19,287 nt of DNA from a virus, in the UHGV virus genome UHGV-0298370; one strand, given 5' to 3'. Positions 526 to 19,287 of the stretch are shown piece by piece. The first letter of the stretch is position 1. Each line of letters opens with the position of its first letter. Both the position numbers and the translations under genes were made by a program. Below the pieces are notes generated by a model that searched no databases, was not told the origin of the DNA, and saw only the letters and a program-made list of their open reading frames with translations.

Positions 526-746
526 GAAATATTGAGGGATTCGCAGATGGCGGGATCGGTATGTCTTTTGATGCAATCAGAGGGGCTTTTTACGATGCAG
601 GAACACGATCAGCGAGAATGCCGAATAACACAACTACTATAGACAAAACCGATGACCTTGGATTCGACGCCTCTCGTGTCGTGCCAACAGCTAATGAAAA
701 CCGTCCACGTAACATCGCCTTTAATTATATTGTGAGGGCTGCATAA
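480..746 (+). CDS. putative orphan tail-fibre C-terminal cassette (frame open from 420, no ATG; GTG at 480); possibly a remnant
   Basis: Frame is open 420-746 after a TGA at 417-419 and ends in TAA overlapping the ATG of the following tail fibre assembly gene (TAATG at 744-748), the arrangement expected for a fibre tip followed by its chaperone. Function inferred from context only. Confidence 0.3.
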   Translation: MDAGRQLLSSQGDAIRNIEGFADGGIGMSFDAIRGAFYDAGTRSARMPNNTTTIDKTDDLGFDASRVVPTANENRPRNIAFNYIVRAA

Positions 747-1339
747 TGAAACCTGTTTTTGATGAAAATGGGCTGGCTACAGTGCCGGGTGATATGCGTT
801 GTTTTTATTATGATGCTGAAACATCTGAGTATACGGGCTGGTCTGATGAATATATTAATACTGGCGTAAGTATGCCCGCCTGTTCAACTGGTATTGACCC
901 TGGCGAAAACATTCCGGGAAAAGTGGCTGTATTTACAGGTAAGGGATGGAGCCATGAAGAGGACCATCGCAATGAGACTGTTTACTCAATCGAAAATGGC
1001 GCAGCTGTTACAGTGGATTATATCGGTGCCATCAAAAACGGTTATGTCACGCTTTCACCGTTAACGCCATATGATAAATGGGATGGTGAGAAATGGGTGA
1101 CAGATACTGAGGCACAACACGGTGCCGCAGTAGAAGCGGCAGAAGCACAGCGCCAGTCACTGATTGATGCAGCAATGGCTTCCATCAGTCTGATTCAGCT
1201 GAAATTACAGGCCGGGCGGAAGCTGACGCAGGCAGAAACCACCCGGCTTAACGCCGTGCTTGATTACATTGACGCGGTGACGGCAACAGATACGAGCACC
1301 GCTCCGGATGTCATCTGGCCTGGACTGCCGGAGGCGTAG
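746..1339 (+). CDS. tail fibre assembly protein (Tfa family), second copy convergent with gpG
   Basis: 197 aa; C-terminus ...LDYIDAVTATDTSTAPDVIWPGLPEA matches the conserved Tfa C-terminal motif and parallels the gpG-like C-terminus ...LDYLDALELVDTSSAPDIEWP on the opposite strand; GAGGG SD upstream. Confidence 0.75.
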   Translation: MKPVFDENGLATVPGDMRCFYYDAETSEYTGWSDEYINTGVSMPACSTGIDPGENIPGKVAVFTGKGWSHEEDHRNETVYSIENGAAVTVDYIGAIKNGYVTLSPLTPYDKWDGEKWVTDTEAQHGAAVEAAEAQRQSLIDAAMASISLIQLKLQAGRKLTQAETTRLNAVLDYIDAVTATDTSTAPDVIWPGLPEA

Positions 1340-1745
1340 GCCATTCAATATCTGGAGCACTGGAGGTATCAACCAGTTCCAGTGCGTCCAGATAATCCAG
1401 CCACAAATTATATTGCGCCAGTTCCTCACCTTTCAGACGACCAATAGCCGCTTTACCAGGCCATTGCTTGGTATTCATATATTCGTTGGACTGATTAATC
1501 AATTGCTGTTTTTTCAATTCGGCTGCGGCAATCTGTTCCTCATGTGTTGGTGGTGGAATTTCAGACCATGCAGGAAAACCATTTTCCCCAGCGATACGGA
1601 TTTTTCCTTTCGGCGGTAATCCGGAAAACTCAATATACACCTGCTCATCAACTTCAACAGCATCATCTGGCCATGAATTTACATTGATGTAGTCATCCTT
1701 AAGCGCAGGATTCACAAAAATATTTAAAGATGGACTAAAAAACAC
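1311..1745 (-). CDS. G: tail fibre assembly protein gpG-like
   Basis: 144 aa, GTG start at 1745 one nt after the H stop with AGGAGG SD; conserved Tfa C-terminal motif; position immediately downstream of H as in P2. Confidence 0.8.
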   Translation of the reverse strand: MFFSPSLNIFVNPALKDDYINVNSWPDDAVEVDEQVYIEFSGLPPKGKIRIAGENGFPAWSEIPPPTHEEQIAAAELKKQQLINQSNEYMNTKQWPGKAAIGRLKGEELAQYNLWLDYLDALELVDTSSAPDIEWPTPPAVQAR

Positions 1746-11586: not shown

Positions 11587-13353
11587 ATGAACACCACACT
11601 GACACCCGCAGATCTCGATCCCCGTCGGCAGGCCATGCTGCTGTACTTTCAGGGATACCGCGTAGCCCGCATTGCTGAAATGCTGGGCGAGAAAGTTGCA
11701 ACCGTTCACAGCTGGAAAAAACGCGACAAGTGGGGTGACTATGGGCCGCTGGATCAGATGCAGCTCACCACCGCCGCACGCTACTGCCAGCTCATTATGA
11801 AGGAGCACAAAGAAGGGAAAGATTTCAAAGAAATTGACCTGCTGGCGCGCCAGTCGGAGCGCCACGCGCGGATCGGCAAGTTTAACAATGGCGGTAACGA
11901 AGCCGACTTAAACCCTAACGTCGCCAACCGCAACAAAGGCCCGCGCCGTCAGCCGGAAAAGAATGTTTTCACCGATGAACAGATTGAGAAGCTGGAAGAA
12001 ATTTTCCATTCCTCCATGTTCAACTACCAGCGCCACTGGTGGGAAGCCGGAAAAACCAACCGCATCCGCAACCTGCTGAAGTCACGCCAGATCGGCGCGA
12101 CCTTTTACTTTGCCCGTGAAGCCCTGATTGACGCCCTGCTTACCGGACGTAACCAGATTTTCCTTTCTGCCAGTAAGGCACAGGCTCACGTCTTTAAGCA
12201 GTACATCATAGACTTCGCCAAAGAAGTCGAGGTGGAGCTGAAAGGCGATCCGATGGTGCTTCCTAACGGAGCCACGCTTTACTTCCTCGGCACCAATGCC
12301 CGCACGGCCCAGAGTTATCACGGCAACCTGTATCTGGATGAATATTTCTGGATACCGAAATTCCAGGAGCTGCGCAAAGTGGCTTCCGGTATGGCTATTC
12401 ACAAAAAATGGCGACAAACCTATTTTTCCACGCCATCCAGCCTGACACACAGTGCTTATCCGTTCTGGTCCGGTGCGCTGTTCAACCGTGGGCGCAACAA
12501 GGCCGACAAGGTGGACATCGACCTGTCCCACAGCAATCTGGCCCCCGGCCTGCTGTGCGCAGACGGGCAATACCGCCAGATAGTCACCGTGGAAGATGCG
12601 GTGCGCGGCGGCTGTAACCTGTTCGACCTTGACCAGTTGCGCATGGAGTACAGCCCGGACGAATACCAGAACCTGCTGATGTGCGAGTTTGTGGACGATC
12701 TCGCGTCCGTGTTCCCGCTCAGCGAGCTGCAGGCGTGCATGGTGGACAGCTGGGAAGTCTGGACCGACTTTCATGCACTGGCTCTGCGCCCGTTTGGCTG
12801 GCGCGAAGTGTGGATCGGTTATGACCCGGCAAAAGGTACGCAAAACGGCGACAGCGCCGGATGCGTAGTGGTGGCACCGCCAGCCGTGCCTGGTGGTAAG
12901 TTCCGCATTCTTGAGCGTCACCAGTGGCGTGGGATGGACTTCCGCGCCCAGGCTGACGCCATCAAAAAACTGACCGAGCAGTACAACGTGACCTACATCG
13001 GCATCGACTCGACAGGTGTCGGCCACGGGGTTTACGAGAACGTGAAAGCGTTTTTTCCAGCCGTCCGGGAGTTTGTCTATAACCCCAATGTTAAAAACGC
13101 CCTGGTACTCAAGGCCTACGACATTATCAGCCACCGCCGTCTGGAGTTTGACGCCGGACACACCGACATAGCGCAGTCATTCATGGCAATCCGTCGCGCC
13201 ACCACCGCGAGCGGCAACCGCCCAACCTATGAAGCCAGCCGCAGCGAAGAAGCCAGCCACGCCGATCTGGCCTGGGCAACGATGCACGCACTGTTTAACG
13301 AACCGCTGCAGGGCGAATCCGCCAATACCAGCAATATTGTGGAGATTTTTTGA
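11587..13353 (+). CDS. P: terminase ATPase (large) subunit gpP
   Basis: 588 aa; N-terminus MNTTLTPADLDPRRQAMLLYFQGYRVARIAEMLGE... and body match P2 gpP; divergent from O as in P2. Confidence 0.95.
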   Translation: MNTTLTPADLDPRRQAMLLYFQGYRVARIAEMLGEKVATVHSWKKRDKWGDYGPLDQMQLTTAARYCQLIMKEHKEGKDFKEIDLLARQSERHARIGKFNNGGNEADLNPNVANRNKGPRRQPEKNVFTDEQIEKLEEIFHSSMFNYQRHWWEAGKTNRIRNLLKSRQIGATFYFAREALIDALLTGRNQIFLSASKAQAHVFKQYIIDFAKEVEVELKGDPMVLPNGATLYFLGTNARTAQSYHGNLYLDEYFWIPKFQELRKVASGMAIHKKWRQTYFSTPSSLTHSAYPFWSGALFNRGRNKADKVDIDLSHSNLAPGLLCADGQYRQIVTVEDAVRGGCNLFDLDQLRMEYSPDEYQNLLMCEFVDDLASVFPLSELQACMVDSWEVWTDFHALALRPFGWREVWIGYDPAKGTQNGDSAGCVVVAPPAVPGGKFRILERHQWRGMDFRAQADAIKKLTEQYNVTYIGIDSTGVGHGVYENVKAFFPAVREFVYNPNVKNALVLKAYDIISHRRLEFDAGHTDIAQSFMAIRRATTASGNRPTYEASRSEEASHADLAWATMHALFNEPLQGESANTSNIVEIF

Positions 13354-14060
13354 TGCCCCCAATCCCAACTAACCTCATGACTATCGCGGGACTTCCGGTG
13401 GATAGCTTTTTCTTTGCTTACCAGTATGAGTGGAACACTGGCCCAAAGAGTAGAAACCGTGTACTCACAAAAATGCGCCAGGCAGGCGCGGATTTCTTTT
13501 TTTCCTATGAAGCCCTGAACGATGCACTGCATACCGGGCGTAACCAGATTTTCCTCTGCTGCAGCACAGCATCTGCGCAGGCAATCAAAGCCTGTGTATC
13601 AGCATTCTTAAGCCAGGCCGCAGCTTATACGCACACTGGAAAAATAAAATCAGGCAAAAGTCATCTGGAGCTTCCGAATGGTGCAGTAATTTATTTTACC
13701 GACCTCAGCAGTCTCACCTCCGCACTCAGTGGAAATGTTTACGTGTCAGAGTATGCCTGGAGTGAATCACCGAGAAATATGATTGCCATCGCTAAAGGGA
13801 TTTCTATGCACGCACACTACCACGCCACCTACTACACCACTCCCAGCCCTAACCCAGAGGCACGGCAGGAATATAAAAAGCTATGCAGAAACAACAGCGT
13901 AACCAGCATGGTGTTCACCGCAGATGACGCAGCAGCATCTGGAGCAATGTTGTTTACTGATAACTGGCTGAACGATATGAAAAAAGAATTATCAGAAGAG
14001 GACTGGAAAATGCTGTTTATGTGCGAATGGCCTCTCGCTAGCAAGGAACTGGCAGAATGA
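13353..14060 (+). CDS. terminase-ATPase-like paralog (truncated, diverged copy of gpP central region)
   Basis: ATG at 13353 overlaps the P stop (TGATG) and its stop overlaps the Q start (ATGA). Protein aligns by eye to gpP residues ~140-400 (FAYQYEWNTGPKSRNR / FNYQRHWWEAGKTNRIR; EALNDALHTGRNQIFL / EALIDALLTGRNQIFL; GNVYVSEYAW / GNLYLDEYFW). A 24-nt stretch at 13532-13555 is 23/24 identical to 12141-12164 in P. Confidence 0.6.
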   Translation: MPPIPTNLMTIAGLPVDSFFFAYQYEWNTGPKSRNRVLTKMRQAGADFFFSYEALNDALHTGRNQIFLCCSTASAQAIKACVSAFLSQAAAYTHTGKIKSGKSHLELPNGAVIYFTDLSSLTSALSGNVYVSEYAWSESPRNMIAIAKGISMHAHYHATYYTTPSPNPEARQEYKKLCRNNSVTSMVFTADDAAASGAMLFTDNWLNDMKKELSEEDWKMLFMCEWPLASKELAE

Positions 14061-15085
14061 GCAAACGTAAAAACACCAAGCAGGTAACAGTTGATCACGA
14101 CACAAAACCAAGCAACGGCCCAACGGCTGAGGCTTTCAGCTTTGGTGATCCCATCCCCGTGCTGGACCGCCGCGAACTGCTGGACTATGTGGAATGCGTA
14201 CAGATGGATCGCTGGTATGAGCCGCCCGTCAGCTTTAATGGACTGGCGCGCACCTTCCGCGCCGCCGTGCATCACAGTTCCCCGATTGCAGTAAAGTGCA
14301 ACATTCTGACCAGTACCTATATCCCTCATCCGCTGCTTAGCCAGCAGGCTTTTTCGCGTTTTGTGCAGGACTATCTGGTATTTGGTAACGCCTACCTGGA
14401 GAAACGCACGAACCGCTTTGGTGAAGTTATCGCCCTTGAGCCAGCTTTGGCAAAATACACCCGACGCGGATTAGACCTGGATACCTACTGGTTTGTGCAA
14501 TACGGTATGACAGCCCAGCCGTATCAGTTCACGAAAGGCAGCATTTTTCATCTGATGGAACCGGACATCAACCAGGAGATCTACGGCCTGCCAGGTTATC
14601 TTTCTGCCATCCCGTCAGCCCTGCTCAACGAGTCCGCCACACTGTTCCGCCGTAAGTATTACATCAACGGCAGCCATGCAGGTTTCATCATGTACATGAC
14701 CGATGCCGCGCAGAACCAAGAAGATGTGAACAACCTCCGCAACGCAATGAAAAGCGCCAAAGGGCCAGGCAACTTCCGCAACCTGTTTATGTACTCTCCT
14801 AACGGCAAAAAGGACGGGCTTCAGATTATCCCGTTGTCAGAAGTCGCGGCGAAGGATGAGTTTCTGAATATCAAGAACGTGAGTCGGGACGACATGATGG
14901 CGGCACACCGTGTGCCGCCGCAAATGATGGGGATAATGCCTAATAATGTTGGGGGCTTTGGAGATGTAGAGAAGGCGAGTAAAGTATTTGTACGTAATGA
15001 ATTATTGCCATTGCAAAAAAGATTACAAGAAATAAACAATTTCATAGAAGAAGGTGTTATTGAATTCCAAGAATACCATTTCTAA
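14057..15085 (+). CDS. Q: portal protein gpQ
   Basis: 342 aa; ...EAFSFGDPIPVLDRRELLDYVECVQMDRWYEPPVSFNGLARTFRAAVHHSSPI...NESATLFRRKYYINGSHAGFIMY...NGKKDGLQIIPLSEVAAKDEF... matches P2 gpQ. Confidence 0.95.
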   Translation: MSKRKNTKQVTVDHDTKPSNGPTAEAFSFGDPIPVLDRRELLDYVECVQMDRWYEPPVSFNGLARTFRAAVHHSSPIAVKCNILTSTYIPHPLLSQQAFSRFVQDYLVFGNAYLEKRTNRFGEVIALEPALAKYTRRGLDLDTYWFVQYGMTAQPYQFTKGSIFHLMEPDINQEIYGLPGYLSAIPSALLNESATLFRRKYYINGSHAGFIMYMTDAAQNQEDVNNLRNAMKSAKGPGNFRNLFMYSPNGKKDGLQIIPLSEVAAKDEFLNIKNVSRDDMMAAHRVPPQMMGIMPNNVGGFGDVEKASKVFVRNELLPLQKRLQEINNFIEEGVIEFQEYHF

Positions 15086-15087
15086 TT

Positions 15088-15118
15088 AAAAAAAAGGGAG
15101 GCAACCTCCCTTTTTTTT
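15088..15118. terminator. bidirectional rho-independent terminator between convergent Q and cargo gene
   Basis: A8-GGGAGG-CAA-CCTCCC-T8: 6-bp GC stem, 3-nt loop, flanked by A-run and T-run so it reads as a terminator on both strands; overlaps the TAA of the minus-strand cargo gene. Confidence 0.75.
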
Positions 15119-16883
15119 AAACATTATCGTATAACTCTTGTATTTTCGTTGGATTTGCAAAAAATCTTGCCGGATAGGCATTCGGGTAATTATCTTCAAT
15201 GTACTCTTCAGCACGTTGAATTAATGCACTTAATTCTTCGGAAAGATTTTTTTCATCTGGAACAAGAATTTCTGAGCTATTATGTATCCCAGAAACGTTG
15301 CTCAATAGTACAGACGCATAGTATCTATTACCATGCGTAATAATTAAATGCTTGCGACTATGGGTCGTTTTATCTACTGATAGTAATGTTTTACCGATCA
15401 ACTTATCTATAACTCTAAAATGTAGAACAGTATTGATAAGTTTTAAACCACTTAATCTTGGATTGAAAATAGTTTTATATAGAGAGCCTTCAAAATTTTC
15501 AAAAAACCTACCGCGATTTGATTTTAGTGTCGATACAACCGTATTATTTTTACTTAAACATGCGAGTGCATTGAGCGCCTCATCCAAGTCAATGACTTTC
15601 GTATTTGTCTGTGAATGATCTTCATCTGTTCTTAGTAACTGATATTGATATCCTTCAAGCACTAACTCCCTTGCCAATCTATGTTGATCTGCCTGCTGCG
15701 ATGCAAAATCTCTTCCCAATACTCTATTTTGGAAATTGTTAGCTTTTGTAATTGCATTTGCAGTTAAATTATCAGTATCATCATCTATAACAATGAATCT
15801 AGCTGGCACTTTGAGTCTATATATGTTTTCACCAAGCGCATCTTTACATGCGCCAATACTACTGACTGTTTGTGCACCATTAATGACACTTACATCACGA
15901 AAATCAAAAATCCCTCTCTCTATATTAGGAGCTGCGTTTCGTCTATGAGGAACAACTTCCTTAACCAGTACAGTAATCCCATTATTATAAAACCAAAACA
16001 TATCAGGATTATCTATAGCTGTCTTTTTTATTTCCTCATTCACTTCTGTTTTACCAAGCATATTCCTTATGTTTTTTGTAAATAATCGAGCACCATGCTC
16101 TTCCCACCATTCTGCAACTTGATCACCACTAATAGCCCCGTAAAAAGCTTGATATGGTTCATTCAAAAATCCAAAACGCTCAATTTCAACCCTGTTAAGA
16201 TCAATTTGATTTCGAGAGCCATTCTGTAACCAATGCATCATATCTTCAGAGGATATTAAATGAACCTGAAATCCCCAGTTCTCTTTAGGCTCATCCTCAG
16301 GTGTAAAAGCTGCAGCGTTTAATTGATATTGCCATTCCCGCATATCATTTAATATTTCCTCTGCAGCACCTTTTTTACCTGTATGCGCCATCGCAAAGAT
16401 GAACTTGTATTCAAAACTACTTAAAGCCGCACTTATTTCCCCGCTTTTATTTTGCAATATGGAATCAAATAATTCGTATCTTTCACTTTGTAGCTTCTCA
16501 CAAGCATCCTTAAAACACATAAAATCGGCTCTTGTCCAAGTGCCGTTTCCCGATTGGTGAAATTTTGATTGAACAACAACAACGATTTTTTCGTTATGGT
16601 TGATTGCTATTCCATCTATACCACCATCTTCACTACTATCACATACAGACTCCCCTGCATACTTATCATCCACACATCCTAACTGATACATAGTGAATGC
16701 AGCTAAAGCCCTGCTAGCCATTTTTACATCATAGTCTGCTTGGCCTGGTGCACACTCTCTTTTATGGATGAATTCTTCATATCTCTTACGTAATACAGAT
16801 CCTAGCCTCTGAGCCATAACCTGTGCTGTCGCAGGTGCAGCAATAGCATTATCTTCAAGCCGAATATCAGTTACAAAAGCCAC
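15117..16883 (-). CDS. Mrr-type nuclease-domain protein with AIPR-like architecture (candidate abortive-infection/defence protein)
   Basis: Long AT-rich ORF; start uncertain (TTG 16940 without SD, GTG 16883 with GGAGGG SD, ATG 16817). N-terminal motif SEDGGIDGIAINHNEKIVVVVQSKFH resembles the Mrr catalytic PD-(D/E)xK core (D-G-G-I-D ... Q-x-K). Size and layout are reminiscent of AIPR-family proteins; not verified by HMM. Confidence 0.65.
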   Translation of the reverse strand: MAFVTDIRLEDNAIAAPATAQVMAQRLGSVLRKRYEEFIHKRECAPGQADYDVKMASRALAAFTMYQLGCVDDKYAGESVCDSSEDGGIDGIAINHNEKIVVVVQSKFHQSGNGTWTRADFMCFKDACEKLQSERYELFDSILQNKSGEISAALSSFEYKFIFAMAHTGKKGAAEEILNDMREWQYQLNAAAFTPEDEPKENWGFQVHLISSEDMMHWLQNGSRNQIDLNRVEIERFGFLNEPYQAFYGAISGDQVAEWWEEHGARLFTKNIRNMLGKTEVNEEIKKTAIDNPDMFWFYNNGITVLVKEVVPHRRNAAPNIERGIFDFRDVSVINGAQTVSSIGACKDALGENIYRLKVPARFIVIDDDTDNLTANAITKANNFQNRVLGRDFASQQADQHRLARELVLEGYQYQLLRTDEDHSQTNTKVIDLDEALNALACLSKNNTVVSTLKSNRGRFFENFEGSLYKTIFNPRLSGLKLINTVLHFRVIDKLIGKTLLSVDKTTHSRKHLIITHGNRYYASVLLSNVSGIHNSSEILVPDEKNLSEELSALIQRAEEYIEDNYPNAYPARFFANPTKIQELYDNV

Positions 16884-16985
16884 AGTCCCTCCATAAAGAC
16901 ATCTGGTACAACTCAATGCTGGGAATAGTGCACATTTCAATGAGATAAATCCACTAATAATCTAGGATTTATGAGTTAGCGCGCG

Positions 16986-17004
16986 CTCGTATCCCCGCCA
17001 CGCC
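16986..17004 (-). other. putative cos site (cohesive-end sequence) of the P2-like phage
   Basis: Minus-strand sequence GGCGTGGCGGGGATACGAG followed by CGCGCGC resembles the P2/186 cohesive-end sequence as I recall it (P2: GGCGAGGCGGGGAAAGCAC TGCGCGC); orientation is correct, with the 5' end pointing toward Q. Depends on my recollection of the P2 cos. Confidence 0.45.
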
Positions 17005-17053
17005 TGCCCGCTTTGTGTAGTGGTTTTCATGCAGGTGCCTGATCCACGCAAAA

Positions 17054-17073
17054 GCCCGCCAGTTCTGGCGGGC
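17054..17073 (-). terminator. probable rho-independent terminator downstream of the DUF2971-like gene
   Basis: GCCCGCCAG-TT-CTGGCGGGC hairpin; on the minus strand it is followed by TTTTGCG; lies ~70 bp past the stop of the minus-strand gene 17140-18258. Confidence 0.5.
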
Positions 17074-17139
17074 CTTAGCAAAAACGATCCTCAAACGGTC
17101 ATGCAAATTCAGGCAGCATAGGCATGCACTGTTGTTAGG

Positions 17140-18258
17140 TTAGTTCGTAATGCCAATTTCCTTCAAAACTTTAGCCATTTCCGTCTGACTTAACTTGTTC
17201 CTGAACAAAGGGAAATTTTTCATTTTTTCCGCTCGTTGCCCTTTTGAAATAGTAATCTTTCCTGATGCTGATAACTCAGAGTCAAAAAAATAACATATTG
17301 TTGAATTTGAATTCTCCATATTTGACTTGATACAATTCCATATGCTTTCTTTTTTCATTTCACACATTCTAGGACCAAAAATGATCCCTTTAACAACATT
17401 AGCATCATGATGAAAAATATGTCCAATATTTCGATTTACGCGTCTTTGAACATGCCGCTCACTCCCTATTCCTGCATTTGCCTCTGGAATAAACATTCGA
17501 TATTCAGCTTCATATCTCCAAAATCTATTTTTAGTTAAAAATAACTCTGCAACATTTGCGCTTGGGTCTAGAAGTGAAACCTCTTTAGCCTGATTACTAT
17601 ATTTTATTTGCTTAACTGGAAAATTAAATTTATCTGATGAAAATAAATTTTCTCTTAGCTTCATTCCAGGATGTGGCACGCCATTAATATTAAAATCCTG
17701 CGTTTCATAAATCACAACACAACCACTAAAGCCTGCAGCATAATGCGCCCACATCATACGATCTAACGCATTAGCTGAAAATGACACACTGAATACTGCA
17801 GGAACTATTTTCCTATACAACCTTTCTTTGATACTGTTCTCGCAAAGTGAGACCAAAAATTGGCGTGGTTCAGGAATATTCCCATAAATAGCGGAATTAA
17901 TCACATTGATAGGTAGTAAACCATCATTTATGATCTTACGTATCTCATCAACGTGTGAGTCAAACAGGCTATCTAATGACTCAATGCTACTTTTTATTTT
18001 TTTTCCTCTAAAAATACGATTCAATCCCTTATGTATCTTCAAATTACTCAAATCTAATATGTGACTCAAATTTTCATAGGATTTATCGCAAGGAGAACGC
18101 AATAAAATATCCCATAATTTCAATTTATTATCAAAACGATAATCTATATTGAGATCATTAGGATCATTCAATTGCGCAGGAGCGGAAAAATATAATTCAT
18201 TATAACGAATAGCTTTCTCGAAGAAGAAGTCCGGACGGTAATACTTGAAAAGATACAT
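17140..18258 (-). CDS. DUF2971-like protein (candidate defence-associated protein of unknown mechanism)
   Basis: 372 aa, AT-rich; N-terminus MYLFKYYRPDFFFEKAIRYNELYFSAPAQLNDPND matches the hallmark DUF2971 N-terminal pattern (KY..........LYFS.P..xNDPxD); ATG start; terminator-like hairpin downstream. Confidence 0.7.
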   Translation of the reverse strand: MYLFKYYRPDFFFEKAIRYNELYFSAPAQLNDPNDLNIDYRFDNKLKLWDILLRSPCDKSYENLSHILDLSNLKIHKGLNRIFRGKKIKSSIESLDSLFDSHVDEIRKIINDGLLPINVINSAIYGNIPEPRQFLVSLCENSIKERLYRKIVPAVFSVSFSANALDRMMWAHYAAGFSGCVVIYETQDFNINGVPHPGMKLRENLFSSDKFNFPVKQIKYSNQAKEVSLLDPSANVAELFLTKNRFWRYEAEYRMFIPEANAGIGSERHVQRRVNRNIGHIFHHDANVVKGIIFGPRMCEMKKESIWNCIKSNMENSNSTICYFFDSELSASGKITISKGQRAEKMKNFPLFRNKLSQTEMAKVLKEIGITN

Positions 18259-18712
18259 GACATTACCTATAACATTGCAATATTAACAACCGTATGAAAA
18301 CGGTTTGATTGTATTGATAATATCCTATTCTGCATATACCACAGTGTAAAGATTAATTTTAAATACCATATCCAACAGTAAATCATGTATCGACCGCCAG
18401 ATAAGAAGCTTTTGAAAAACTTGGACAATAATTAATCAAAAGGTAAGAGATACTCTTCAAATACATGACGTTGGCTTCCTCTTTCGTGATAACTATCAAG
18501 ACCAAGTCCATTAGATAATGGACATCAAATATTCCAAGTCAATCCAAGAACAATCATCATAAGCTCTTCCCATCCTGTATCCTCTATCTCACTCTTTTGG
18601 ACATTGAAAGAAGCCCCTCTGACCGGGAATGATTGTTTCCAGCGTTTGACCACGATATACAATATGATATTTGATGTCTTTTGATCAGATGGCTAACGCC
18701 TCGCACAGCTCG

Positions 18713-18852
18713 TTGTTCAACCTTGCTGACGCCAGAAGCAAGTTCAGACGCCAGCAACGTTTCTTAATGCAGCCAGCTGTCGTCTTCCCACACCTTCTGC
18801 ATAATTTTCATCACTTGTTTTCTTTCTTCGTCCAGTTGCAGTCCGGTCAGTT
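18713..18852. repeat. direct repeat copy A (140 bp, truncated 3' gene fragment)
   Basis: 140 bp with 2 mismatches to 19148-19287; contains a minus-strand frame ending ...LTGLQLDEERKQVMKIMQKVWEDDSWLH-stop (stop 18765-18767) that is closed by a stop ~38 codons upstream, so this copy is a fragment. Confidence 0.7.
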
Positions 18853-19147
18853 CAACACCATTAGAGCTACCTTTACGGGCTGCAAATTACCTTTTGGGAT
18901 TTGTGATAGATACGAAAATCCTATTAGATGCTTGTTAGACCGGAAGCGCCACTTCGAACGAAAAGTAATGGCCACTTATGCCGGTTTAAAAGCCTTAACC
19001 TTGTATAGTTATTTGAATATTTTCTTCATTAACACCAAAGTATAGGGCTAGCCCTGCTTTTGCCTCCTGAAGTGTTAACGGCTTAACTACATTTTCTTCT
19101 TCTTCTTCGTACTCATCACCCCCCATGACTAATGCCCCACTAAACTA

Positions 19148-19287
19148 GTTGTTCAACGTTGCTGACGTCAGAAGCAAGTTCAGACGCCAGCAACGTTTCT
19201 TAATGCAGCCAGCTGTCGTCTTCCCACACCTTCTGCATAATTTTCATCACTTGTTTTCTTTCTTCGTCCAGTTGCAGTCCGGTCAGT
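19148..19287. repeat. direct repeat copy B (140 bp, continues beyond window end)
   Basis: Matches 18713-18852; truncated by the window edge. Confidence 0.7.
19200..19287 (-). CDS. 3' end of a gene entering from beyond the window (C-terminus ...LTGLQLDEERKQVMKIMQKVWEDDSWLH)
   Basis: Open minus-strand frame running off the window edge, stop codon TAA at 19200-19202; identity unknown. Confidence 0.4.
   Translation of the reverse strand, partial: LTGLQLDEERKQVMKIMQKVWEDDSWLH

What the first reader, a model, noticed from the sequence alone, without database searches (positions are those of the whole stretch)
17140..18258. DUF2971-like protein as stand-alone cargo on the far side of cos
The N-terminus MYLFKYYRPDFFFEKAIRYNELYFSAPAQLNDPND reproduces the signature that I recognise as the DUF2971 family, which has no established biochemical function. 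The gene sits where P2 carries old, has its own terminator, and is preceded by ~400 bp of AT-rich non-coding DNA (18259-18670) that is likely to hold its promoter and could carry regulatory elements. I do not know whether a DUF2971 single-gene system at this locus has been functionally described.
Basis: partly seen in the sequence, partly recalled or inferred. Interest (0 to 1): 0.7.

Follow-up and report, generated by a model that had tools for sequence, protein, structure and literature searches.

The report
Single-gene ADP-ribosyltransferase-like defence candidate in P2 prophage
A P2-type prophage carries, next to its DNA-packaging site, a lone imported gene from the DUF2971 family. Its predicted fold is that of an ADP-ribosyl-transferase toxin, and it is most likely an anti-phage "suicide" gene of a kind already catalogued but not tested in E. 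coli.

Summary
The ORF is real: 17140-18258, minus strand, 372 aa, under purifying selection, and identical to RefSeq WP_021542067 ("DUF2971 domain-containing protein"). The Pfam DUF2971 score is marginal (22.4 vs 22 bits) and covers only aa 169-255. The PADLOC candidate-defence model PDC-S31 matches aa 3-312 (3e-23), and all 39 aligned sequences (the query plus 38 relatives) hit both models.

The gene lies in a 1.56-kb, 34% GC insert (17131-18691) in the known gpA-cos-gpQ hotspot of P2-like phages. It sits on the old/tin side of cos (16986-17004) but points the opposite way to old. Partners across cos vary (AIPR, PIN, kinase+HIRAN), and relatives sit alone in an ICE and a lambdoid prophage, so it acts alone.

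Two details need correcting. The terminator belongs to the phage backbone. About 260 bp of the "non-coding" leader is a decayed 86-aa phage ORF.

A distant family member, Aristaios, is a validated lactococcal abortive-infection gene. Verdict: a new member of a known kind, of moderate-to-low interest.

The parts
17140..18258 (-). DUF2971 / PDC-S31 family gene, 372 aa, predicted ADP-ribosyltransferase fold. Conserved core segments are aa 1-43, 151-185 and 241-300. Variable parts are the helical insert aa 44-150, the beta-hairpin insert aa 186-240 and the C-terminal part aa 301-372 (helix 300-315, beta-meander and terminal helix).
17131..18691 (-). Low-GC (34%) insert relative to cargo-less P2-like phages (L005, L006), where it replaces about 5 bp between the DinI 3' flank and the terminator/cos block.
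18322..18350 (-). Sigma-70-like promoter TTTACA-17-TAGGAT. The -35 hexamer and most of the -10 are invariant in cassettes whose proteins are only about 70% identical, while the flanking DNA is not conserved.
18259..18431 (-). True 5' leader of the gene (promoter, about 57-nt predicted 5' UTR, AGGT Shine-Dalgarno-like element). The inverted repeat at 18288-18305 is not conserved.
18432..18690 (-). Decayed remnant of an 86-aa phage ORF (start codon lost, in-frame stops). It is intact in L015 5576-5836 and as gp46 of phage Cartapus. L002 carries a 113-bp deletion inside it (18443-18555).
17050..17074 (-). Intrinsic terminator (GGCCCGCCAG-AA-CTGGCGGGC plus TTTT). It is part of the conserved phage backbone and is shared with phages that lack this gene.
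16986..17004 (-). cos cohesive-end sequence GGCGTGGCGGGGATACGAG (P2: GGCGAGGCGGGGAAAGCAC).
15117..16883 (-). Context only: AIPR / AbiU-like gene on the portal side of cos. It is an independently assorting second cargo gene.
18764..18900 (-). Context only: 3' fragment of the DinI gene, which forms the upstream conserved flank of the cargo slot.

Best explanation
The gene is a self-contained moron in the cos-proximal defence hotspot of a P2-like prophage, expressed from its own promoter. Its product is an ADP-ribosyltransferase-fold enzyme. The most likely mechanism is as follows. It stays inactive in the lysogen. When a superinfecting phage is sensed, it uses NAD+ to ADP-ribosylate an essential macromolecule. 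That target is either nucleic acid, as with the nearest folds DarT and Tpt1, or a protein arginine, as the ExE motif would suggest. Modification stops phage (and cell) gene expression or replication, giving abortive-infection-type immunity. The variable helical insert (aa 44-150) and the C-terminal part (aa 301-372) are proposed to sense the phage or to auto-inhibit the enzyme, because no antitoxin gene accompanies it.

Shown here: gene integrity and purifying selection, family membership, ART fold, conserved acidic motif, hotspot location, and independence from neighbours.

Inferred, not shown: NAD+ use, the target, the trigger, and the anti-phage phenotype.

For: Active-site-like pattern across relatives down to 18% identity: K/R at position 5 on strand 1, invariant S159 with S/T161, and invariant W247, E250, E252 and R254.

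Defence association: PADLOC PDC-S31 hit at 3e-23, and all 39 aligned sequences hit it. The PDC models come from genes embedded in BREX, DISARM and type I RM loci.

Location: the gene lies between gpA/DinI and cos in the P2 hotspot described by Rousset et al.. The exact accession WP_021542067 is listed in their table.

Mobility as a single gene: different partners across cos, and monocistronic copies in an ICE, another island and a lambdoid prophage.

Gene integrity and expression: purifying selection and a conserved promoter.

Literature: DUF2971 is assigned to ARTs (PMC12522546). The DUF2971 protein Aristaios is a single-gene Abi-like system that affects phage transcription (PMC11381338 and PMC13064643).
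Confidence: 0.55

Rival explanations
1. It uses the same fold and the same defence role, but acts as an NAD+ glycohydrolase. It would deplete NAD+ on infection and would not modify a specific macromolecule.
Against: The best structural matches are transferases acting on nucleic acids or proteins. An invariant ExE plus R254 is typical of transferases. Aristaios is reported to affect phage transcription specifically.
Confidence: 0.15
2. It is a phage-benefit enzyme used in the prophage's own lytic cycle, modifying host proteins in the manner of T4 Alt/ModA/ModB, and is not a defence gene.
For: It is co-oriented with the early operon (gpA, DinI), with no strong terminator between DinI and the gene, so read-through on induction is plausible.
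Against: It is dispensable: closely related phages lack it, and no record in the phage collection carries a close homologue. The same gene sits in an ICE and other non-P2 elements. It has its own conserved promoter. It matches a defence-island-derived model.
Confidence: 0.1
3. It is the toxin half of an addiction or toxin-antitoxin module whose small upstream partner has decayed. It would now be silent, or serve only to stabilise the prophage.
For: A remnant of an 86-aa ORF lies directly upstream and is intact next to the 70%-identical orthologues in L015. DarT-like toxins normally need antitoxins.
Against: The 86-aa ORF occurs in 36 phage records that have no DUF2971 gene, including non-P2 phages. 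It is therefore an independent phage gene. The copies in L007, L009 and L013 have no such neighbour. The DUF2971 gene stays under purifying selection where the small ORF is dead.
Confidence: 0.07
4. It is a lysogenic-conversion virulence effector that is exported to act on eukaryotic cells.
For: PMC12522546 predicts about 18% of DUF2971 proteins to be effectors, and one family member is a Legionella putative effector.
Against: No secretion-associated genes lie in the locus. The subfamily is found in environmental and plant-associated enterics and pseudomonads inside phage and ICE cargo sites.
Confidence: 0.03

Closest known systems
Aristaios (Lactococcus plasmid pUCCL641_199, 316 aa; Grafakou et al. 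2024, PMC11381338)
   Different: It comes from a Gram-positive plasmid and not an enterobacterial P2 prophage. The window subfamily has its own helical insert and C-terminal module, shared by only 22 of 6146 family representatives at E<=1e-30.
PADLOC phage defence candidate PDC-S31
   Same: The HMM matches over aa 3-312 at E 3e-23, and the arrangement is single-gene.
   Different: PDC systems are untested predictions from 'guilt by embedding' in BREX, DISARM and RM loci. Here the context is a prophage hotspot.
DarT of DarTG toxin-antitoxin systems (PF14487; PDB 7yk3, 7omv, 8baq)
   Different: There is no detectable sequence or profile similarity. The acidic motif is ExE where DarT has QAE. Motif I is K/R where DarT has His. 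Large inserts are present. There is no DarG macrodomain antitoxin.
P2 old / tin lysogenic-conversion genes
   Same: They occupy the same hotspot between gpA and cos on the right-end side of cos, and are non-essential, low-GC exclusion cargo.
   Different: The proteins are unrelated (Old is an ATPase plus TOPRIM). Their orientation is opposite: old/tin are transcribed away from cos from a promoter near cosR, while this gene is transcribed toward cos and stops at the backbone terminator.

Membership tests
Pfam DUF2971 (PF11185) | Score at or above the curated gathering threshold | tested here: met
   22.4 bits against a cutoff of 22, aa 169-255, full model 1-89. This is borderline for the query, but all 39 aligned sequences match, best 4e-12. 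RefSeq names it a DUF2971 domain-containing protein.
PADLOC PDC-S31 (candidate single-gene defence) | Match to the PDC-S31 HMMs as a single gene | tested here: met
   PDLC04990 E 3.1e-23 over aa 3-312, and three further PDC-S31 models. 39 of 39 aligned sequences match. No co-varying neighbour was found.
Aristaios | Direct sequence relatedness to the Aristaios protein | not tested
   The sequence is not held in the tools. No supplement is held for the paper, and tblastn of the plasmid collection found no lactococcal hit.
Aristaios | Anti-phage abortive-infection phenotype as a single gene | not testable with these tools
   Needs plaque and lysis-curve assays.
ADP-ribosyltransferase superfamily | ART split beta-sheet fold | tested here: met
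ADP-ribosyltransferase superfamily | Conserved catalytic Glu (motif III) and NAD+-site motifs I and II | tested here: inconclusive
   E250-x-E252 is invariant, S159 is invariant, and position 5 is K/R. Placement in the NAD+ pocket was not verified by superposition. The published assignment differs (modified H-Y-E).
ADP-ribosyltransferase superfamily | NAD+-dependent ADP-ribose transfer | not testable with these tools
   Needs a biochemical assay.
DarT / DarTG | Sequence membership in PF14487 (DUF4433) | tested here: not met
   No Pfam DarT hit in any of the 39 aligned sequences. hhalign of A3 against a 28-sequence DarT alignment gave Prob 0.09%.
DarT / DarTG | Adjacent DarG macrodomain antitoxin | tested here: not met
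   The insert holds one intact gene only. The neighbours are DinI and AIPR.
P2-like cos-proximal defence hotspot (Rousset et al. 2022) | Variable cargo between gpA and gpQ adjacent to cos | tested here: met
   The order is gpA - DinI - [gene] - cos - [AIPR] - gpQ. Other cargo occupies the same slots in L002, L005, L012, L014 and Cartapus. The accession is listed in their hotspot table.

The most novel reading that the evidence does not exclude
The protein is an antitoxin-less, self-regulated ADP-ribosyltransferase. Its fold is closest to DarT and Tpt1, but its active site reads (K/R)...SxS...ExE. On phage sensing through its variable helical insert, it would ADP-ribosylate nucleic acid or the transcription machinery. 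That would make it a new biochemical class of single-protein immune effector, and would give the first mechanism for the roughly 6000-cluster DUF2971 family.
Probability: 0.25. Interest if true: 0.55.

Novelty: new member of a known kind. Interest (0 to 1): 0.3.

Why it matters
DUF2971 is a very large family: 6146 clusters at 50% identity matched the profile. It has only one validated anti-phage member and no demonstrated chemistry. An E. coli/P2 representative with a defined promoter, defined insert boundaries and candidate catalytic residues (K5, S159, E250, E252) offers a tractable system. It could be used to test whether these proteins are NAD+-dependent ADP-ribosyltransferases, what they modify, and how a toxin of this fold is kept silent without an antitoxin. 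The locus also shows cargo slots on both sides of cos being swapped independently. Otherwise the finding fits the published picture of the P2 defence hotspot.

Tried and rejected
- Foldseek of the model against the PDB and BFVD gave no hit at E<=0.001. The afdb_sample library was unavailable.
- A profile search of PDB sequences with A1 gave only chance hits.
- hhalign of the DUF2971 alignment (A3) against a DarT alignment (A4) was not significant. Its only aligned stretch was SFS..PMMWAHY against FAPRSPMLYAI, so DarT family membership is rejected.
- tblastn against the plasmid and phage collections gave one weak hit each. No close homologue was found in any record of the phage collection searched.
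- An Rfam scan of the whole window found no RNA family.
- The inverted repeat at 18288-18305 between promoter and start codon was considered as an operator or 5' UTR hairpin. It is rejected because it is disrupted in the 98%-identical L002 copy and absent in L012 and L014.
- The upstream 86-aa ORF was considered as an antitoxin or partner. It is rejected because it is decayed here and widespread in phages that lack DUF2971.
- The AIPR gene was considered as a functional partner across cos. It is rejected because it is replaced by unrelated genes next to near-identical DUF2971 copies.
- The gene's 'own terminator' is rejected. The hairpin is backbone sequence present in cargo-less phages.
- A literature search for 'PDC-S31' found no paper.

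Full report
OBSERVATION. The window is a P2-type prophage read in reverse to the standard P2 map. Capsid, lysis and tail genes are on the minus strand. Terminase gpP (11587-13353) and portal gpQ (14057-15085) are on the plus strand. Aligning the P2 right end to the window places the 19-nt cohesive end at 16986-17004: GGCGTGGCGGGGATACGAG against P2's GGCGAGGCGGGGAAAGCAC. The gene is therefore on the old/tin side of cos. A 588-aa AIPR/AbiU-like gene (15117-16883) lies on the portal side. GC is 33.5% for the gene and 55.7% for the backbone.

IS IT A REAL GENE? Yes. It is identical over its length to a RefSeq CDS (WP_021542067) found in 27 of 5426 complete E. coli genomes. It has 58 full-length homologues down to 30% identity. 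dN/dS is 0.18 against a 98%-identical copy and 0.07-0.16 against more distant orthologues.

FAMILY. Pfam DUF2971 matches at 22.4 bits against a cutoff of 22, over aa 169-255 only. It is nevertheless the best conserved block of the wider family: N31 and D32 are invariant, and E21 and F24 nearly so. PADLOC model PDC-S31 covers aa 3-312 at E 3e-23. All 39 sequences of a broad alignment (identity to the query 18-41%) match both DUF2971 and PDC-S31. A profile search of 1.84 billion cluster representatives finds 6146 relatives at E<=1e-3 but only 22 at E<=1e-30. Most distant matches stop near residue 315 and often skip residues ~50-130.

ANATOMY OF THE LOCUS. I compared the window with P2-like phages that have no cargo here (vB_EcoM-813R9, L005; p13P477T-2, L006). 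Window 16974-17130 and 18692-18900 are backbone, and 17131-18691 (1561 bp) replaces about 5 bp. Only 9 bp separate the stop codon from backbone. The strong hairpin GGCCCGCCAG-AA-CTGGCGGGC plus TTTT at 17050-17074 lies inside backbone. Phage Cartapus also has it, after a different cargo gene. It is therefore the phage's right-end terminator and not the gene's own.

Upstream, an alignment with cassettes whose proteins are about 70% identical (L012 Citrobacter, L014, L015) shows that 18432-18690 corresponds to an 86-aa ORF. That ORF is intact in L015 and in Cartapus gp46. In the window it has lost its start codon and carries stops, and L002 has a 113-bp deletion inside it. The small ORF occurs in 36 phage records, none of which has a DUF2971 gene, so it is an independent phage gene and not a partner.

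The real leader is about 173 bp (18259-18431). Its sigma-70-like promoter, TTTACA-17-TAGGAT (18350-18322), is the one block that stays conserved across the diverged cassettes. The small inverted repeat at 18288-18305 is not conserved. P2 old/tin are transcribed away from cos from starts at 33424-33426. This gene is transcribed toward cos, in the same direction as gpA and DinI.

STAND-ALONE? Near-identical copies sit opposite different genes across cos: AIPR (L001, and the window) and a PIN_12 protein (L002). Orthologues at 69-71% identity occupy the same slot opposite a HipA-like kinase plus HIRAN pair. More distant relatives are single genes flanked by divergent or convergent neighbours. They sit in an ICE (L013), another integrative element (L009) and a lambdoid prophage island next to EMARD/DUF7380, GIY-YIG and HNH genes (L007). 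No macrodomain or other candidate antitoxin is present.

Across the broad family the invariant residues are N31, D32, S159, W170, Y173, G179, Y220, K243, W247, E250, E252, R254 and G295. Position 5 is always K or R, and position 161 is S or T. By position in the predicted secondary structure, this reads as (K/R) on strand 1, S-x-S/T on the strand before the MWAHY helix, and E-x-E at the start of a late strand. That is the R-S-E type of ART signature. A published survey instead describes DUF2971 as a modified H-Y-E family with a conserved Tyr and an ExE (PMC12522546). I could not superpose coordinates, so the residue assignment remains an inference.

WHAT IS KNOWN. Rousset et al. 2022 defined the gpA-gpQ, cos-adjacent region of P2-like phages as a defence hotspot, with 1650 arrangements in 18150 loci. 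Their supplementary table lists 'hypothetical + DinI + DUF2971 + hypothetical' with this exact accession. DUF2971 is not among the systems they report testing in that section. PADLOC's PDC systems are untested candidates found embedded in BREX, DISARM and RM loci. Aristaios, a 316-aa DUF2971 protein from a lactococcal plasmid, is a validated single-gene Abi-like system with an ART-like predicted fold. It is reported to interfere with phage transcription, and its trigger and chemistry are unknown. DUF2971 has been assigned to the ART superfamily bioinformatically, close to DarT and AbiGi.

MECHANISM. The best-supported reading is a prophage-expressed, single-protein immune effector of ART fold. 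On infection it would use NAD+ to modify nucleic acid (nearest folds DarT and Tpt1) or a protein arginine (ExE motif, and the transcription phenotype of Aristaios), aborting the infection. The variable insert and C-terminal part would provide sensing or auto-inhibition in place of an antitoxin. Everything after 'ART fold' in that reading is inferred. The rivals are NAD+ depletion, a lytic-cycle host-takeover enzyme, a degenerate toxin-antitoxin or addiction module, and a secreted effector. They are listed with their evidence in the Rival explanations section.

VERDICT. It is a new member of a known kind, in a known hotspot, already catalogued but untested. Interest is moderate-to-low, and would rise if the chemistry of this antitoxin-less ART-fold family were worked out using this tractable E. 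coli copy.

Noticed in passing
window 13350-14060 (+): An extra 236-aa ORF is wedged between terminase gpP and portal gpQ, with a local GC dip. It matches Pfam Terminase_6N (ATPase domain only, 3.7e-16) but is only 32% identical to the resident gpP. It is absent in L002 and L005, where P and Q abut. It looks like a free-standing, divergent terminase ATPase domain of unknown role, possibly a packaging-interference or decoy gene.
   Followed up: partly
window 18689-18851 and 19125-19287, with 18901-19124 between: The DinI 3' end plus its downstream flank is present twice (163 nt, 94% identical). The two copies bracket a unique 224-bp segment with a 43-aa acidic ORF (18995-19126, minus strand; no Pfam hit). 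No complete E. coli genome has this arrangement. It looks like a recombination scar from stacked cargo exchange at the hotspot boundary.
   Followed up: partly
window 18719-18761 and 19155-19197: A long, near-perfect inverted repeat (19-nt arms, 5-nt loop, no T-run) lies immediately after the DinI stop codon. It is highly conserved across P2-like phages and sits about 30 bp from the point where cargo begins. It may be a protein-binding or recombination-boundary element.
   Followed up: no
window 18432-18690 (-): A decayed remnant of an 86-aa ORF that is intact in L015 and as Cartapus gp46. Homologues occur in 36 phage records, including SSU5-like plasmid-phages and lambdoid Salmonella phages. 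It has no Pfam family and its function is unknown.
   Followed up: yes
window 15117-16883 (-); L002 4659-5720; L012 7518-9163; L005 1774-2925: The slot between cos and the portal gene is a second, independently swapping cargo site. It holds AIPR/AbiU-like here, a PIN_12 protein in L002, a HipA-like kinase plus HIRAN pair in L012 and L014, and a Hypoth_Ymh protein in L005.
   Followed up: partly
L007 5807-11471: A 40%-identical DUF2971 homologue sits in a lambdoid prophage island, between the replication genes and antiterminator Q. Its neighbours are a 617-aa DUF7380/EMARD_N protein, a GIY-YIG protein and an HNH_2 protein. This is a probable defence island in a different phage family.
   Followed up: no
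window 746-1339 (+) and 1311-1745 (-): Two tail-fibre assembly (Caudo_TAP) ORFs lie in opposite orientation and overlap at their ends. In the matching E. coli genome a recombinase gene lies next to them. This is consistent with an invertible host-range segment.
   Followed up: no
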